Shown: in pieces, positions 2,949-56,049 of the stretch
Position numbering within the stretch: the stretch's first letter is position 1
Layout: every line of letters begins with the position of its first letter
Assembly: GCF_009914755.1 (NCBI RefSeq)
Contig: NC_060936.1
Direction: 5' to 3' (one strand)
DNA from: the human T2T-CHM13v2.0 reference genome, Homo sapiens
Length of the DNA: 64,000 nucleotides
The notes under the pieces: generated by a model
What the model saw: only the letters and a program-made list of their open reading frames with translations
The model's database searches: none
Told to the model about the DNA's origin: nothing
Position numbers and translations under genes: made by a program

Positions 2949-3986
2949 GTGGTCTTGGGTAAGAACCAGAAGAATTCTCTGAATTACCAGGCAGAGACTC
3001 TTGTTCTTTTCCCTTACTTTCTTCCAAACAAATGAAGTCTGTATCTCTGTGCTGGGTGTCCCGGAACTGGAGGTGGTGGGACACTAGCACCCCTGTGGCC
3101 ACCTCCACTGGGATTGTACTGGTTCAGACCCGAAGCCAGCACAGGACTGGATCATGCCCAAAGCTTGCTGTAATCACTACCTGGCTACCACCTAAGTTCA
3201 CTCAAGGTCCTAGGGCTTTACAATCAGCAAGTGGCAAAGCCAACTAGGTTTGTGTCCCTCCTTTCAGGGCAGTGAGTTTCCATAGGCCCTGGGTGGGTCC
3301 AGAGATTCTGTCTGGGAGCCAAGGATTGAAGTAAAAGAAATTAGAAATTGACCTTGTGTTGTATGCTACTGTGGCCAAATCGGCACTCAAGCCACCAGAC
3401 AAAATCTTTCCCACTCTTCCTGCCTCTTTCCACATGCAGAGGATCCTCTCTCCGTGGCCACCACCACTGGCCCATGGGGGCTTCTGCCAGGCCACCACTG
3501 ATGTTCACTTAAAGCCCAAAGCCTCTTTAGTCAGCTTGTGGTAAATGCTGCCAGGCCTGGGACTCACCCTTCAGAGCACTGGGCTCTCCTCTGGCCAAGG
3601 GCAGGTCCAGAAATGCTGACAAGAGCCTAGGCCTGGATTCAGGGATGCCATGAGCCTGCTTGTTGCTCTACCCCACAGTGGCCAAACTGGTATCTAAGGT
3701 GCAGACAGAGTCCCCTTTTCTTTCCACCCCCCGATTTTCTCAAACAGAAGGAGTCTTTCACCATAGCCACCCCCGTTGGGAATGTGTTGGGTCATTACTG
3801 AAGCTAGCACATCTCAGAGCCCAAAACCCTCAGCATATTACCTGGGTATTGCTGTTGGTTACTCAGGGCCCAGGGGCTCTTTATTTAGCAAGTGATCAAT
3901 CCTGCCAGGTCTCTGCTGTGACGGGGCAGCACTGAGTCCAATGTAAAGTCCCTTAGTCACTGCACTCTACATCTCCCAAGCATACA

Positions 3987-50090: not shown

Positions 50091-51204
50091 AGTCCTGACT
50101 CTGCCACTAGCAGTTTGGCTTTGATCAAGTTATGTAACTTCTTTGTCCCTCAATAGCCTCATCTTTAAAATTAATGTCTTGGACTACATAATCCAACTCT
50201 AGACACAATGGCTAAAATGCAAACATTCAGCTGCAATTTAAAGATAGGAAGTGTTCGTTGGGGGCAGATTTTGCCTTTGAGGGTGTGTGGGATTATGGGT
50301 TGGCACTGGACTTTATGTGCCTCAGACAATGTCCGTTGTCAGACTACTCACCATCCTGTGGAGCTGCCGTCCCATCCCCAGACCTCTTACCCTGCCACCA
50401 TAGGGGCACCGCACTAGCTCTTGCTTGTCTGGGTCTTTGTTCTGAGCTGCTTACCCTGGCCCACCCCTCTTTCATGGTTATTTCAATCTGCATCCTCTCA
50501 GCTTTTACACTGAATTGCTTTCTCTTTTTTCTTTTCTTTTTTTTTTTTAAGTTTATTGAGACTTTTATTATTGTCCAATGTATGAGCTATCTTGATAAAT
50601 GTTTCAAGTACACTTGAATATGTTTTCTACTTTTAAAAAAAATTATACTTTAAGTTCTGGGATACAAGTGCAGAACGTGCAGGTTTGTTACATAGGTGTA
50701 CACGTGCCATGGTGGTTTGCTGCACCCATCAACCCATCATCTACATTAGATATTTCTCCTAATGCTCTCCCTCCCTTTGCCCCTCACCCCTCGACAGGCC
50801 CTGGTGTGTGATGTTCCCCTCCCTGTGTCCATGTGTTCTCATTGTTCAACTCCCACTTATGAGTGAGAACATGTGGTGGTTGGTTTTCTGTTTCTGTTAG
50901 TTTGATGAGAATGATGGTTTCCAGCTTCAACCGTGTCCCTGCAAAGGACATGAACTCATCCTTTTTTATGGCTGCATAGTATTCCATGGTGTATATGTGG
51001 CACATTTTCTTTATCCAGTCTATTATTGATGGGCATTGGGGTTGGTTCCAAGTCTTTTCTATTGTGAATAGTGCTGCAATAAACATACTATCCAGAATCT
51101 ACAAAGAATTTAAGCAAATACAAGAGAAAAACAACCCCATCAAAAAGTGGGCAAAGGATATGAACAGACACTTCTCAAAAGAAGACAGTAGAGGCGACCT
51201 AAAC

Positions 51205-51540
51205 ATGGAGACAGCGGGCTCTGGTACTGGGCAGCCGGCCTCTCTGCTGGAGGCTCCCGGGTCCACGGATGACCGGCTTTTCCTGGTTAAAGGTGGAATT
51301 TTCCTTGGTACTGTTGCTGCAGCAGGAACGCTAGCTGGATTTATTACAACATTATCATTGGCTAAAAAGAAAAGCCCTGAATGGTTCAATAAGGGAAGTA
51401 TGGTCACGACTGCATTACCGGAAAGCGGGTCTTCCCTTGCCTTGCGAGCTCTGGGCTGCGGCTCACTGTATGCATGGTGTGGGGTTGGTGTGATTAGCTT
51501 CTCAGTCTGGAAAGCTTTAGGGGTTCACAGTGACATGTAA
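51205..51540 (+). pseudogene. TMEM242: Processed, 3'-truncated TMEM242 copy (codons 1-109 followed by D-M-stop)
   Basis: [13 protein letters not shown]...[19 protein letters not shown]...[14 protein letters not shown]...VWKALGVHS matches recalled TMEM242, intronless; the C-terminal ~32 aa are absent. Confidence 0.88.
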
Positions 51541-52099
51541 GAGATATCCTCATTTTAATTGAAGGCTACATCACCAACTTTCTACCCGAGAAGTCGTTTT
51601 TCTTCGGGACCCACAATCAAAGGCTTTCCTCCGGCATGAGAAAGGAGTAACATTCCCGCCTGGTGAGTTTTTAGTGCTGGAGTGACTCCCAGCCGGCCCC
51701 TACCCCGCTCAAGCTCCTGCTGACTGTCCCAGTGTGGGTCCTGGCCAAGACTGGCACCAAGGCAGTGGGATCCTTTATAAGTAGGCCTCCAGCGCCATAC
51801 ACCAGAAAGCAGGAGCCCACTTCTGGGACACTGGGAGAGGGTGCAGGCAGCCACCAGTACGCAAAGCACAGTGCCCTATCCTTCCCGGCAGGGTCACAGT
51901 TCAGAAGATGTAACCTGATTTTCATCTGTAGTTAATAGAAGCATTTTGCCTTGACATTCATACTAAAAATAGAAAACACTAGTAATTCCAGGGATCTGGG
52001 TTAGTCTCTTAAGCATGTCAACTATTGATGAGAATACTCTTTGTAAAACTAACTCCAGAAATCACTTGCTAGAGAAGCAGCCCTTCATTGCCTTAGTCT

Positions 52100-52288
52100 G
52101 AGCACCCACGGAAAGCACGTGTTGGAGGCGCTGGCAAGGGCCGCGCAGCCGCAGTAGAGGGCCAGGGGGCGGGTGGTGCGCACCCGCCATAGAGGGCTGA
52201 AGGTGCTGCCCACGGCTTTCTTGGCGTCTCGACGTTTTGGTCAGCGGCTTTTTTCCATTCTTTCCCTCCACTTCTTGAGTGAGCAGCC
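52100..52288 (+). promoter_or_regulatory. CpG/GC-rich promoter-like segment and 5'UTR upstream of the LDH ORF
   Basis: Local CpG cluster; E-box CACGTG at 52116-52121; GC box GGGGCGGG at 52166-52173. Motifs only. Confidence 0.45.
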
Positions 52289-53430
52289 ATGAGTTGGACT
52301 GTACCTGTTGTGTGGGCCAGCCAGAGAGTGAGCTCGGCAGGAGCGAATTTTCTGTGCCTGGGGATGGCCCTGTGTCCCCGTCAGGCAGCGTGCATGCCAC
52401 TCATGGGCACCTGGCTCTTCACCTCCGTGAGCAAGATGGCGACTGTGAAGAGTGAGCTTATTGAGTGCTTCACTTCCGAGGAGCCCTTTCATCACAGAAA
52501 GGTCTCCATCACAGGAACTGGATCAGTGGGCATGGCCTGCGCTACCAGCATCTTATTAAAAGGCTTGAGTGATGAACTTGCCTTTGTGGATCTTGATGAA
52601 GGCAAACTGAAAGGTGAGACAATGGATCTTCAACATGGCAGCCCTTTCATGAAAATGTCAAATATTGTTTGTAGCAAAGATTACCTTGTCACAGCAAACC
52701 CCCATCTAGTGATTATCACAGCAGGTGCACGCCGAGAAAAGGGAGAAATGCGCTTTAATTTAGTCCGGCAAAATGTGGCCATCTTCAAGTTAATGATTTC
52801 CAGTATTGTCCAGCAGAGCCCCCTCTGCAAACTAATTATTGTTTCCAATCCAGTAGATATCTTAACTTACGTAGCCTGGAAGTTGAGTGCATTTCCCAAA
52901 AACCGTGTTATTGGAAGCGGCTGTAATCTGGATACTGTTCGTTTTCAATTCTTCATTGGACAAAAGCTTGGTATCCACTCTGAAAGCTGCCGTGGATGGA
53001 TCCTCGGAGAGCATGGAGACTCAAGTGTTCCTGTGTGGAGTGGAATGAACATAGCTGGTGTCCTTTTGAAGGATCTGAACTCTGATATAGGAACTGATAA
53101 AGATCCTGAGAAATGGAAAAATGTCCACAAAGAAGTGATTGCTAGTGCCTATGAGATTATTGAAATGAAAAGTTCTACTTCGTGGGCCATTGGCCTATCT
53201 GGAGCTGATTTAACAGAAAGTATTTTGAAGAATCTTAGGAGAAAACATCCAGTTTCCACCATAATTAAGGGCCTCTACGGAATAAATGAAGAAGTCTTCC
53301 TCAGTATTCCTTCTTTGGAGAGAAGGGTATTACCAACCTTATAAAGAGAAAGCTGACCCCTGAAGAGGAGGCCCATCTGAAAAAGAGTGCAAAAACACTT
53401 TGGGAAATTCAGAAGGAGCTTGAGACTTAA
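52289..53430 (+). pseudogene. LDHAL6CP: LDHAL6B-like lactate dehydrogenase retro-pseudogene; 351-aa ORF to 53344 with a frameshift near 53311-53316
   Basis: N-terminal extension MSWTVPVV..., [34 protein letters not shown]. The true C-terminus [10 protein letters not shown]...[11 protein letters not shown] lies in another frame (53317-53430). The CP designation is from memory. Confidence 0.9.
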
Positions 53431-56049
53431 AGTTGTCTAAAACTACCATTCCGAAATTATTGAAGAGATCATAGATACAGGATTATATATCAAAATTTTC
53501 AATAAACTTGAATTCCTGAAAGATGGAAACAGGAAAGTGGGTAGAGTGACTTTCCTTTTTATTTAGTCTTCCAGCTCTTTTATTTAGCATCCAGGTGCTG
53601 GATGATACTTATTTACAATTCCTAAAGAAAGTGTTTTTGGTAATGCTGATATAGCAGTACTTACCTTGTTATATATATGTAGTTGGCATTTGGTTCCTAA
53701 AAAGTAGGATGTAGGTATTTACTGTGTTTGAGAAATTCTGATTCTTTTCACTAGATATATGCTATTTATTCTTGCTGGCTTATACCTATGTTCATTTATA
53801 TGCTGTAAAAAAGTGGTAATTTACAATGTAAAAATAAAAGTATGCATATACAAAAAAAAGAAGACATTTATGCGGCCAACAAACATGAAAAAAGCTCATT
53901 ATCACTGGTCATTACAGAAATGCAAATCAAAACCACAATGAGATACCATCTCATGCCAGTTAGAATGGCAATCACTAAAAAGTCAGGAAACAACAGATGC
54001 TGGAGAGAATGTGGAGAAATAGGAACATATTTACACTACTGGTGGGAGTGTAAATTAGTTCAACCACTGTGGAAGACAGTGCGGTGATTCCTCAAGGATC
54101 TAGAACCAGAAATATCATTTGACCCAGCAATCCCATTACTGGGTATATACCCAATGGATTATAAATCATTGTACTATAAAGACACATGCTTTCTCTTTTT
54201 TCTAACTTGCTCTTCAGACTTAATGCTCAGTATTACCTGCCTCACTATGAGTTTGTCTCCCCTAGAAGATAGTCTATGTATTCCATTTGGCTGTGGATCT
54301 GATTCTGCTTGGGGCATGTATTTCTCTTGAATACTTGAATACCATGGGACCCACCCATGTTTTCTGGGACTCAGGCATAAGGCAATCACCTCAATTTTCT
54401 ATGTCCATGTAATGACTCTTGTGCTGGTGTTATCTAACATGTTAACTAGATTGTAGTTGTAGTTCTCTGCATGTAAGGATCAATGCTTTTTTTTCTGCTG
54501 ATTCCCCAACAACCTTATATAATGTTGAGTTCCTATAAGATGCTTAGAAACTAGTTGTTAATTTGTACATTCCCACTTTTTGGATCTTTACCAAGCTTAT
54601 CTTTTGTTGGAGGATTTTGTAAAAACAAAAAGGGGAAGAGTAGACACTGCTAAAGGAAAGAACTTAAAAGTCAGGAACTGCCTTGGTTTCCCCTTTTATT
54701 TTCTTCCTCTTGCTTTTGTTATCTCCTCTTTCTAATATAGCAATATGAGTGTATGGCTACCACATATATTTGTTTAAATTTAACTTAAAATATCCATTCT
54801 AGATAATCTGCCTTTAGCCCTTTTCTATCAGGGTACTATATTTTATCATTAATTAATTCCTTATAATTAACTTCATTTATTTCTTATTAATCTCATAATG
54901 GACAAGGAGTACCAGTGCCTGGTTGAATAAAGAGGGGAATCACTTTGTTGTCAGAACAGAAACTCATTCAAACCAGCTCAGGTCAGAAACAAAAAGTGGG
55001 GAATGTATTGAATGTCTGATGGTATCTCTAATAACTGTAGAGTAATAATTATAGAGATCTGTCATTTGGTACTGGATCCAGGACCCAGAAAATTTGAATC
55101 CAAGGTTATTTGCTTTGTTTTTTTCAGAAGAGTTTATCTCTTGGCTCTGCTCCTATTGGTACATCAACTTTATTTTTCCTGGGTCTTACTGTAGATTATC
55201 TTACTGTGCTCCGGCCCGCACATGTTGGTCCCAGCCTCTGCGTTTCCAGATCTCCTAACTCAAACACTCATCAGAAATTAAGTGCAGTCTAGTTTCTGTG
55301 TTCCAATTCTAAATTCCAAGAAGAGATTCTGATTGTCCAGCTTTGCTAAGATACAGACCCCCCATCCTGTCAGCAGGGGTTAGGGTGTAGAAGAGTCATG
55401 TCCTACAAACATGGGTACAAATATGGGCATCAGCACGGGGGAGGTGCTTACCCCTGAAAGTCCCTAAGTGTTGGCGTGAACAGTTTCGCAATATATACTG
55501 GCTGATTTTACTATGGCAGGCTCACAAAGTTTATACAGAATAGACCTTTCCAATCTCCTTGATTTCTTTGTTTTGAAATGTGGCTGATGTCTGAATACAG
55601 TATCCAACAAAATAATTAAAGTGCTGTTTGGAGATTTAGCTTGAAGGGCAATCACTTTTTAACTTAATACGTTTCTTAGATCTTGATTTAACTGTCTTTT
55701 TTTGGGGTGAAAATTTGTTTGATCTTGTCTTATCATTAGAAAAGATACAGCATGGGAATTCTATGCATTCCTGTAAAGTTCAAACACATTTCCTTTTGTT
55801 GACAGGTAGTAATTTGTATGAGGCAGGCAAAGGAAGAATGGCTTCAAACAAATGATTCAAGTTCAGAAATATGCAAATAAATGGATTTTCTAATTGTTTT
55901 TTCTTTTTTTCTTTTTTTAAACTTTTACCTTAAGTCTGTTCATTAGTTGTGATTGCTTTGTAACAAGAATCTGGAGGGCATCTAAGGACATCATCACTGA
56001 TCTGGGGAAACAGGACCTGCTTTGGGGAATTGATCTTACAAGATCAAGG

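What the first reader, a model, noticed from the sequence alone, without database searches (positions are those of the whole stretch)
51188..53855. Fossil of a TMEM242::LDHAL6 fusion mRNA captured in one retrotransposition event
Seen: one TSD pair (AAAAGAAGACA) and one AATAAA/poly(A) bracket an intronless TMEM242 CDS, a ~750-bp linker and a nearly complete LDHAL6B-like ORF with its 3'UTR. The TMEM242 match stops exactly after codon 109 (...GVHS, 51531). Established: L1 target-primed reverse transcription copies one RNA per TSD pair, and LDHAL6 genes derive from LDHA. Inference: the template was a spliced transcript joining the first TMEM242 exons to an alternative terminal exon that contains an intronic LDHAL6 copy. 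I recall an LDHAL6 pseudogene (LDHAL6FP) at the TMEM242 locus on 6q25, unverified. This would be a second-generation retrocopy of a two-ORF germline RNA, with a host promoter helping spread the LDHAL6 family.
Basis: partly seen in the sequence, partly recalled or inferred. Interest (0 to 1): 0.9.

Follow-up and report, generated by a model that had tools for sequence, protein, structure and literature searches.

The report
Retrocopy of a TMEM242–LDHAL6B fusion RNA
This stretch of human chromosome 12 is a dead copy of one spliced RNA that joined the first three exons of TMEM242 to a lactate-dehydrogenase-like gene lying inside TMEM242's last intron on chromosome 6, and it suggests that today's human LDHAL6B on chromosome 15 is a relocated sister copy.

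Summary
Window 51188-53855 is a single L1-type insertion inside an older L1. It has an 11-bp target-site duplication that occurs once at the matching place in 15 of 15 paralogous L1 copies.

- **TMEM242 part:** 51188-51531 is chr6 TMEM242 exons 1, 2 and 3, joined precisely. Exon 3 ends at a GTAAGT donor, which is window 51531.
- **Linker and LDH part:** 51532-53843 is one colinear chr6 block on the same strand, 54 kb into intron 3 and 5.6 kb before exon 4. It directly follows an AG.
- **Living parallel:** a pig-tailed macaque TMEM242 'isoform X2' model ends in an exon encoded in this same linker.
- **Age:** macaque and gibbon proteins carry the retrocopy's own substitutions, so the insertion predates the ape/Old World monkey split.

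One amendment concerns the chr6 copy, probably LDHAL6FP. It looks like the ancestral LDHAL6B locus, not a derived pseudogene. Chr15 LDHAL6B is bracketed by a 19-bp duplication exactly at the edges of its homology with chr6. Chr6 has no duplication and no A-run. Cattle LDHAL6B is listed beside TMEM242.

Both retrocopies carried about 530 bp of promoter. This explains a promoter similarity noted but left unresolved in 2008. The finding is a new member of a known kind and of moderate interest.

The parts
50619..51176 (+). Host L1 (3' part of ORF2), upstream half of the interrupted element
   Evidence: sequence; the ORF reads L1 ORF2-like text; the hub table gives this as a masked repeat; L1 paralogues match 51150-51187.
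51177..51187 (+). 5' target-site duplication AAAAGAAGACA
   Evidence: Exact repeat D14. It is present once in 15 of 15 L1 paralogues that matched both flanks.
51188..51292 (+). TMEM242 exon 1 (short 5'UTR, ATG at 51205)
   Evidence: Matches chr6:158565397-158565505(-) at 92.7%. Chr6 continues with the donor gtaaga. The match can be extended to 51186 because the CA is shared with the TSD.
51293..51393 (+). TMEM242 exon 2
   Evidence: Matches chr6:158564691-158564794(-) at 97.1%. It is flanked in chr6 by ...ggcAG| and |gttggt.
51394..51531 (+). TMEM242 exon 3, ending at codon 109 (...GVHS)
   Evidence: Matches chr6:158560768-158560908(-) at 95.7%. Chr6 reads ...CACAGT|gtaagt. The canonical protein P0010 continues from exon 4 at this point.
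51532..51662 (+). First 131 nt of the alternative terminal exon: chr6 intron-3 sequence that is absent from chr15
   Evidence: Chr6 reads ...ccattttaAG|GAC... at the junction. Identity to chr6 is 116 of 131. Window 51564-51650 encodes the tail of macaque TMEM242 isoform X2, P0003. The piece ends at CTG|GTGAGT, a donor-like motif.
51663..52190 (+). Upstream/promoter region of LDHAL6B, carried along in the RNA
   Evidence: Shared with chr6 and with chr15 upstream of the LDHAL6B ORF. GC is 0.59 and CpG o/e 0.65 near the 3' end. Okamura & Nakai 2008 reported LDHAL6B promoter similarity to a chr12 cDNA.
52191..52288 (+). LDHAL6B-type 5'UTR (start of the annotated LDHAL6CP)
   Evidence: Hub annotation; alignment.
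52289..53344 (+). LDHAL6B-type ORF, 351 codons open, then a frameshift
   Evidence: A 4-nt deletion after 53312 relative to chr15 and chr6 leads to the stop at 53342-53344.
53345..53851 (+). Out-of-frame remainder of the CDS and the 3'UTR, with AATAAA at 53833-53838
   Evidence: The homology with chr15 and chr6 ends at the cleavage site.
53852..53855 (+). Remnant of the poly(A) tail (4 A's, plus 4 that are ambiguous with the TSD)
53856..53866 (+). 3' target-site duplication AAAAGAAGACA
53867..54207 (+). Host L1, downstream half
   Evidence: L1 paralogues match 53856-53899; the hub table gives this as a masked repeat.

Best explanation
**Shown.** In an ancestor of apes and Old World monkeys, a TMEM242 transcript on the chr6 homologue was spliced through exons 1, 2 and 3. 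It then spliced from the exon-3 donor to an AG acceptor 54 kb into intron 3, not to exon 4. That alternative last exon ran through 131 nt of intron, about 530 nt of LDHAL6B upstream/promoter sequence and the whole intronless LDHAL6B-type gene nested there on the same strand. It ended at that gene's own AATAAA. L1 machinery reverse-transcribed this single 2.67-kb RNA, essentially full length, into an L1 element on chr12 and made an 11-bp TSD. The copy has since decayed: one frameshift in the LDH ORF, and a TMEM242 ORF that stops two codons after the junction.

**Inferred, about 0.8.** The chr6 nested gene is the ancestral mammalian LDHAL6B. The human chr15 LDHAL6B is another retrocopy of it, made at about the same time, and it begins 131 nt inside the same alternative exon. 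It kept the promoter and ORF and took over the function, while chr6 decayed.
For: - **Mapping.** The TMEM242 query had 4 of 4 genome matches: itself plus three chr6 exons. The linker had 3 of 3: chr12, chr6 (query positions 1-658, 92%) and chr15 (positions 139-657, 91%). The whole block 51532-53843 is one HSP on chr6(-).
- **Splice sites.** Canonical sites sit at all three junctions, and AG|GAC at the fourth.
- **Position of exon 4.** It lies at chr6:158498681-158498779(-), preceded by ttttAG|, so the LDH block is intronic.
- **Single insertion.** There is one 11-bp TSD, and 15 of 15 L1 paralogues show the empty site.
- **Living parallel.** The 28-aa tail of macaque isoform X2 (P0003) is 27 of 28 identical to the translation of window 51564-51647. 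It maps to chr6:158506543-158506623.
- **Age.** P0032 (macaque) and P0009 (gibbon) share L14, S100, T/I69 and the post-junction D with the window ORF. Substitutions unique to each copy are 79 (chr12), 82 (chr6) and 94 (chr15) of 2110 columns.
- **Direction chr6 to chr15.** An 18/19 direct repeat of 19 nt brackets L005:1494-3681 exactly at the homology edges. Chr6 has no such repeat and no A-run. A cattle table lists ARID1B, TMEM242, LDHAL6B and ZDHHC14 within one 0.5-Mb window on BTA9 (passage).
Against: - No RNA evidence was seen here for the exact exon 3 to 51532-type junction in any living species. The macaque model uses an acceptor 32 nt further on, and I could not see what supports that model.
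- The poly(A) remnant is only 4-8 A.
- On direction, the three copies form an unresolved star. The inner branch (chr12,chr6) has support 74/83 and length 0.003. Polarised shared changes for 12+6: 12+15: 6+15 are 2:3:2, 9:6:12 and 6:7:5 with three different outgroups. So the tree does not show which locus is the source.
- Chr15 carries an unexplained excess of unique changes at 51660-52059: 33, against 8 (chr12) and 14 (chr6).
- The cattle listing shows neighbourhood only, not nesting.
- The mouse location is recalled only. Two literature searches found nothing on it.
Confidence: 0.88

Rival explanations
1. Same fusion-RNA retrocopy, but with the history the reader assumed. Chr15 LDHAL6B is the old functional gene. 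The chr6 intronic copy is a first-generation pseudogene copied from chr15. Chr12 is then a copy of that pseudogene.
For: The chr15 ORF is intact (381 codons) while chr6 is broken. The tree does not resolve direction. NCBI names chr15 as the gene and the others as pseudogenes (hub table).
Against: The chr15 block is flanked by an 18/19 TSD of 19 nt exactly where homology with chr6 starts and stops. A chr15 transcript would have had to start within a base or two of that old insertion edge. Chr6 shows no A-run or TSD. Cattle LDHAL6B is listed at the TMEM242 locus.
Confidence: 0.1
2. Chimera made by L1 reverse-transcriptase template switching. Reverse transcription started on a 5'-extended LDHAL6B RNA and then jumped to a separate TMEM242 mRNA.
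For: One TSD pair with two gene parts in the same orientation is also what template-switch chimeras look like (recalled from the chimeric-retrogene literature, not read here).
Against: The junction is exactly the exon-3 donor on one side and, on the other, a chr6 AG acceptor in the same gene, on the same strand, 54 kb downstream. The 131 nt after the junction are TMEM242 intron sequence that is absent from chr15.
Confidence: 0.02
3. Two independent insertions, with an LDHAL6 retrocopy and a TMEM242 retrocopy landing next to or inside one another.
For: NCBI annotates two separate pseudogenes, LOC100506911 and LDHAL6CP (hub table).
Against: There is no internal A-run or second TSD. The L1 host is interrupted once, with one 11-bp duplication. 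The space between the two annotated pseudogenes is colinear chr6 sequence.
Confidence: 0.01

Closest known systems
PIPSL-type retrocopies of chimeric (read-through or intergenically spliced) transcripts
   Same: One L1-mediated insertion records an RNA that joined exons of two genes lying in tandem or nested on one strand.
   Different: Here the second gene is an intronless gene nested in the first gene's intron and is carried with its own promoter. The two ORFs are not fused in frame, because the TMEM242 frame stops 2 codons after the junction, and the copy is dead. I saw PIPSL only in search listings and abstract lines. Its mechanism is recalled.
Promoter retrotransposition (Okamura & Nakai 2008, PMC2386082)
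   Same: A retrocopy includes the parent's promoter because the template RNA began upstream of it. The paper notes that the LDHAL6B promoter resembles that of a chr12 cDNA (DKFZp686H1233, AL833331) and leaves the mechanism open (passages).
   Different: [quoted passage not shown] The present data place the common source in TMEM242 intron 3 on chr6. They also supply the splicing evidence the authors said would decide for retrotransposition. That AL833331 maps to this window is inferred from the linker having only three genomic copies.
Template-switch chimeric retrogenes (U6-L1 and mRNA-mRNA chimeras)
   Same: Two-part retrocopy within one TSD pair.
   Different: The junction lies at splice sites, and the parts are linked at one source locus. 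This defining feature was tested and not met. The family description is recalled.
Relocated or 'orphan' retrogenes that replace their parent
   Same: If the inference holds, the functional LDHAL6B moved from 6q25.3 to 15q22 by retroposition and the original decayed.
   Different: The parent was itself an intronless retrogene, and the move carried its promoter. The concept is recalled and was not read here.
Ordinary processed pseudogenes as annotated (LOC100506911, LDHAL6CP)
   Same: Same sequence and same coordinates.
   Different: The annotation treats them as two items and leaves the 650-nt bridge unannotated (hub table).

Membership tests
L1-mediated processed retrocopy | Exons joined precisely, introns absent | tested here: met
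   Three TMEM242 exon junctions sit at chr6 GT/AG sites.
L1-mediated processed retrocopy | Target-site duplication flanking the whole insert | tested here: met
   An 11-bp exact repeat, which occurs once in 15 of 15 L1 paralogues that matched both flanks.
L1-mediated processed retrocopy | Poly(A) tail directly after a poly(A) signal and cleavage site | tested here: inconclusive
   AATAAA lies 13 nt before the end, but only 4 A's (8 counting the TSD) remain.
Retrocopy of a spliced two-gene (host plus nested gene) transcript | Both parts colinear, on the same strand, at one source locus | tested here: met
   On chr6(-) the order is exon 1 at 158565505, exon 3 at 158560768, the block at 158506658-158504408, and exon 4 at 158498779.
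Retrocopy of a spliced two-gene (host plus nested gene) transcript | Junction at a donor and an acceptor | tested here: met
   CACAGT|gtaagt and ttttaAG|GAC.
Retrocopy of a spliced two-gene (host plus nested gene) transcript | The fusion RNA observed directly | not testable with these tools
   There are no RNA-seq data here. The only related item is a macaque protein model with an alternative last exon in the same 100 bp.
Template-switch chimeric retrogene | Parts come from unlinked RNAs and the junction is unrelated to splice sites | tested here: not met
Functional LDHAL6B (L-lactate dehydrogenase A-like 6B) | Intact ORF of about 381 codons with both LDH domains | tested here: not met
   351 codons, then a frameshift. 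Ldh_1_C is matched only to profile position 132 of 174. Chr15 has the intact 381-codon ORF.
TMEM242 (DUF1358) | Full 141-aa protein including the exon-4 tail | tested here: not met
   Codons 1-109 are followed by 2 codons and a stop. Exon 4 is absent.

The most novel reading that the evidence does not exclude
Host-gene transcription is what moved LDHAL6B. On this reading the chr15 gene, like the chr12 fossil, was copied from a TMEM242-promoter-driven RNA that ran through the nested gene. The RNA therefore contained the nested gene's own promoter as ordinary transcribed sequence. This would have let a testis LDH gene leave its host intron and land on another chromosome ready to be expressed, after which the original decayed. 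The chr12 fossil would then be the only surviving full-length record of that RNA species. The chr15 copy starts at window-equivalent 51662/3, a consensus donor motif, which might even reflect a splicing-derived 5' end.
Probability: 0.3. Interest if true: 0.65.

Novelty: new member of a known kind. Interest (0 to 1): 0.45.

Why it matters
- **A dated snapshot of an old RNA.** The fossil is a physical record of a transcript isoform, a host gene spliced into a nested retrogene, that existed before the ape/Old World monkey split. A related isoform is still modelled in macaque.
- **One event, not two.** The two separately annotated pseudogenes and the unannotated bridge between them belong to a single insertion.
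- **An answer to a published puzzle.** It explains why the LDHAL6B promoter has a look-alike on chr12. Both derive from a third locus, on chr6, by retroposition of RNAs that began upstream of the promoter.
- **A possible orthology correction.** Human LDHAL6B at 15q22 may not sit at the same locus as the cattle gene (and, by recall, the mouse gene). This matters for orthology tables, synteny-based annotation and knock-out comparisons.
- **A clean example of promoter carry-over.** It shows how nesting inside a host gene can give a retrogene's next copy its promoter for free.

Tried and rejected
- **Template switching and double insertion:** rejected on the junctions, the colinearity and the single TSD.
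- **Chr12 as an intermediate for chr15:** there is no excess of 12+15 shared derived sites, and chr15 differs most from chr12 and chr6 in the far-upstream part.
- **Ordering the two retropositions:** the tree and the polarised site counts did not resolve it.
- **Finding TMEM242 exon 4:** a Pfam DUF1358 search of the genome missed it. Searching with the 141-aa homologue P0010 found it.
- **A paralogous 'empty site' for the chr15 insertion:** both 300-bp flanks are unique in the genome.
- **Literature on the mouse Ldhal6b location or any TMEM242-LDHAL6 link:**
  - (Ldhal6b + Tmem242) found 1 paper, the cattle GWAS.
  - One search listed 22 of 24 papers, and only the cattle paper holds Ldhal6b.
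  - (Ldhal6b + Ts65Dn) found 0.
  - One search found 3, all unrelated gene lists.
  - (LDHAL6A + LDHAL6B + phylogen) found 0.
  - Within this library the fusion and the relocation are not in print. Subscription papers and retrocopy databases were not searchable.


Full report
**What is in the window**

Window 51188-53855 interrupts an L1 ORF2 3' fragment. The L1 text stops at ...CTTCTCAAAAGAAGACA and resumes after the insert with AAAAGAAGACATTTATGC.... The 11-mer AAAAGAAGACA is exact at 51177-51187 and 53856-53866 (family D14).

An exact 11-mer pair is not remarkable by itself, since one search lists another (D15). The genome search settles it. In one search the two flanks (window 51150-51187 and 53856-53899) matched 15 other L1 copies on both sides. 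In all 15 the two matches overlap by exactly 11 bp, so the word occurs once at the unoccupied site. A sixteenth copy matched only the 3' flank. The insert ends 13 nt after an AATAAA (53833-53838). Only four A's lie outside the duplication.

**Mapping to the source locus**

The window's own assembly could be searched.

- The TMEM242-like part gave 4 of 4 matches: itself and three chr6 segments on the minus strand.
- BLAST on the fetched loci gave these matches to chr6:

| Window | chr6 (minus strand) | Identity |
|---|---|---|
| 51186-51294 | 158565397-158565505 | 92.7% |
| 51291-51394 | 158564691-158564794 | 97.1% |
| 51392-51532 | 158560768-158560908 | 95.7% |

- Reading chr6 at these edges shows AAAG|gtaaga, ggcAG|GTGG...AATAAG|gttggt, and ttcAG|GGAAG...CACAGT|gtaagt.
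- The true exon limits in the window are therefore 51188-51292, 51293-51393 and 51394-51531.
- From 51532 to 53843 the window is one colinear block on chr6:158504408-158506658, also on the minus strand. Identity is 89.0% over 2317 columns, 71 of them gaps.
- In chr6 this block is directly preceded by ...cttgccattttaAG|.

A canonical 141-aa TMEM242 homologue (P0010) placed exon 4 at chr6:158498681-158498779(-). It is preceded by ttcttcttttAG|. The block therefore lies inside intron 3, 54.1 kb after exon 3 and 5.6 kb before exon 4.

**What the linker is**

The 659-nt linker has only three copies in the genome. These are chr12, chr6 (query positions 1-658, 92%) and chr15 (positions 139-657, 91%).

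- The first 131 nt (51532-51662) exist only on chr6 and chr12, with 116 of 131 identical.
- The rest is the region upstream of the LDHAL6B ORF on chr15.
- The RNA therefore contained intron sequence, then roughly 530 nt of LDHAL6B upstream/promoter DNA, then the gene itself. Near its end that upstream stretch has GC 0.59 and CpG o/e 0.65.

**A living parallel and the age**

Among 426 TMEM242 homologues (120 listed, 14 read) is Macaca nemestrina 'TMEM242 isoform X2' (P0003, 137 aa). It follows exons 1-3 with a 28-residue tail.

- That tail is 27 of 28 identical to the translation of window 51564-51647.
- It maps to chr6:158506543-158506623.
- An alternative last exon in this same 100 bp is therefore still modelled in a living monkey. 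It uses an acceptor 32 nt further on. I could not see what evidence supports the model.

Two other database proteins look like the orthologous retrocopy ORFs: P0032 (the same macaque, 111 aa) and P0009 (gibbon, 120 aa). They share with the window ORF residues that no true TMEM242 in alignment A1 has: L14, S100, T or I at 69, and a D right after ...GVHS. The insertion is therefore older than the ape/Old World monkey split.

Over 2110 ungapped three-way columns, 79 changes are unique to chr12, 82 to chr6 and 94 to chr15. That is about 4% per branch. With a recalled neutral rate near 1e-9 per site per year, this suggests roughly 30-40 million years.

**State of the ORFs**

- **chr15:** intact at 381 codons.
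- **chr12:** open for 351 codons, then a 4-nt deletion after 53312 shifts the frame. Ldh_1_N and Ldh_1_C are both recognised.
- **chr6:** 12-, 18- and 30-nt deletions and a 4-nt frameshift.
- **Fusion RNA:** the TMEM242 frame stops two codons after the junction, so this was a two-ORF RNA and not a fusion protein.

**Which LDHAL6 locus is the source**

- The chr15 block is bracketed by a 19-nt direct repeat, 18 of 19 identical (L005:1475-1493 and 3682-3700). It is the top repeat family.
- Homology with chr6 begins right after the first copy. It ends at the cleavage site right before the second.
- Chr6 has no A-run after the cleavage site and no flanking repeat at those edges.
- A cattle GWAS table lists ARID1B, TMEM242, LDHAL6B and ZDHHC14 together in a 0.5-Mb window on BTA9 (passage). 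These are the neighbours of the human chr6 copy, not of 15q22.
- LDHAL6FP is reported as an eQTL gene for a SNP inside ARID1B on chr6 (passage). This fits that name for the chr6 copy.
- I recall, without a call to support it, that mouse Ldhal6b also lies beside Tmem242.

Together these make chr6 the probable ancestral LDHAL6B locus, and chr15 a retrocopy that took over.

The sequence tree neither helps nor hurts. The trio is a 100/100 clade. Its inner branch (chr12,chr6) has support 74/83 and length 0.003. End branches are 0.045, 0.042 and 0.024.

- The tree used 10 rows and 869 columns.
- Left out were L013 and L014, which are LDHA-like copies.
- Also left out were one LDHAL6A exon that was not fetched and the chr11:18.50-18.54 Mb hits.

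Shared derived sites for 12+6: 12+15: 6+15 are 2:3:2, 9:6:12 and 6:7:5 under three outgroups. That alignment was anchored to the window, so insertions relative to the window were dropped. The nearly equal chr6 and chr12 branches in the coding region fit loss of constraint on chr6 at about the time of the duplication.

**Relation to print**

Okamura & Nakai 2008 (PMC2386082; passages read) reported that the LDHAL6B promoter resembles that of a chr12 cDNA (AL833331). They could not decide between retrotransposition and segmental duplication, saying that evidence of splicing would decide it. They concluded that LDHAL6B had gained another gene's promoter. The spliced TMEM242 exons in this window are that evidence, and the common source is a third locus.

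Searches for any link between TMEM242/C6orf35 and LDHAL6 found only unrelated gene lists and the cattle table. Retrocopy catalogues and their supplements could not be consulted.

**Unexplained**

- Chr15 has 33 unique changes in 51660-52059, against 8 (chr12) and 14 (chr6). The 3'UTR shows no such excess (18, 15 and 15).
- The chr15 copy begins at the equivalent of window 51662/3. There chr12 reads CTG|GTGAGT and chr6 reads GTGAAT, so the 131-nt piece looks like a cassette exon. This may be coincidence, or it may be a clue to the template's 5' end.

**Verdict**

This is a new, well-documented member of a known kind: a retrocopy of a chimeric transcript, with promoter carry-over. It carries a plausible and testable corollary about the relocation of human LDHAL6B.

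Noticed in passing
L005:1475-3700 (chr15:57008375-57010600): Human LDHAL6B on chr15 is itself bracketed by a 19-nt direct repeat (18/19 identical). The repeat sits exactly at the edges of its homology with the chr6 copy. The insert carries about 620 nt upstream of the ORF.
   Followed up: yes
window 51660-51670; L005:1494: The 5' end of the chr15 retrocopy coincides, to within a base, with a consensus 5' splice-site motif (CTG|GTGAGT in chr12, GTGAAT in chr6). That motif would make 51532-51662 a 131-nt cassette exon.
   Followed up: no
window 51660-52059 and its chr15 counterpart: Chr15 carries 33 unique substitutions here, against 8 (chr12) and 14 (chr6). The 3'UTR shows no such asymmetry. 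The cause is unknown.
   Followed up: partly
window 50986-51540: A 184-codon ORF starts in the host L1 ORF2 remnant and runs in frame through the TMEM242 5'UTR and exons 1-3. A predicted protein that matches this ORF from its fourth codon on is in the protein database (P0001, 181 aa, 12 member sequences).
   Followed up: no
proteins P0013, P0014, P0025, P0040, P0049, P0091: TMEM242 models from otter, rhinoceros, alpaca, mouse and bats all diverge from the canonical protein right after ...GVHS. The exon-3 donor therefore seems to feed many alternative last exons across mammals.
   Followed up: no
L007 (chr11:83750451-83752100) and L008/L018 (chr4:74776678-74780194): Two much older LDHAL6B-type retrocopies (75-79% identity) begin at window-equivalent 52248 and 52317. 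They carry no upstream or TMEM242 part. In the tree they branch near the LDHAL6A/LDHAL6B base.
   Followed up: partly
window 52143-52162 and 52178-52197: A 20-nt imperfect direct repeat (85% identical, 35 nt apart) straddles the annotated start of LDHAL6CP, in the GC-rich promoter-like stretch.
   Followed up: no
L006 (chr6:158504408-158506658): In human chr6 the AG acceptor, the downstream AATAAA and the same-strand nesting are all still intact. A TMEM242-LDHAL6FP fusion RNA could therefore still be made. An eQTL for LDHAL6FP in stomach is mentioned in PMC12554230 (passage).
   Followed up: no
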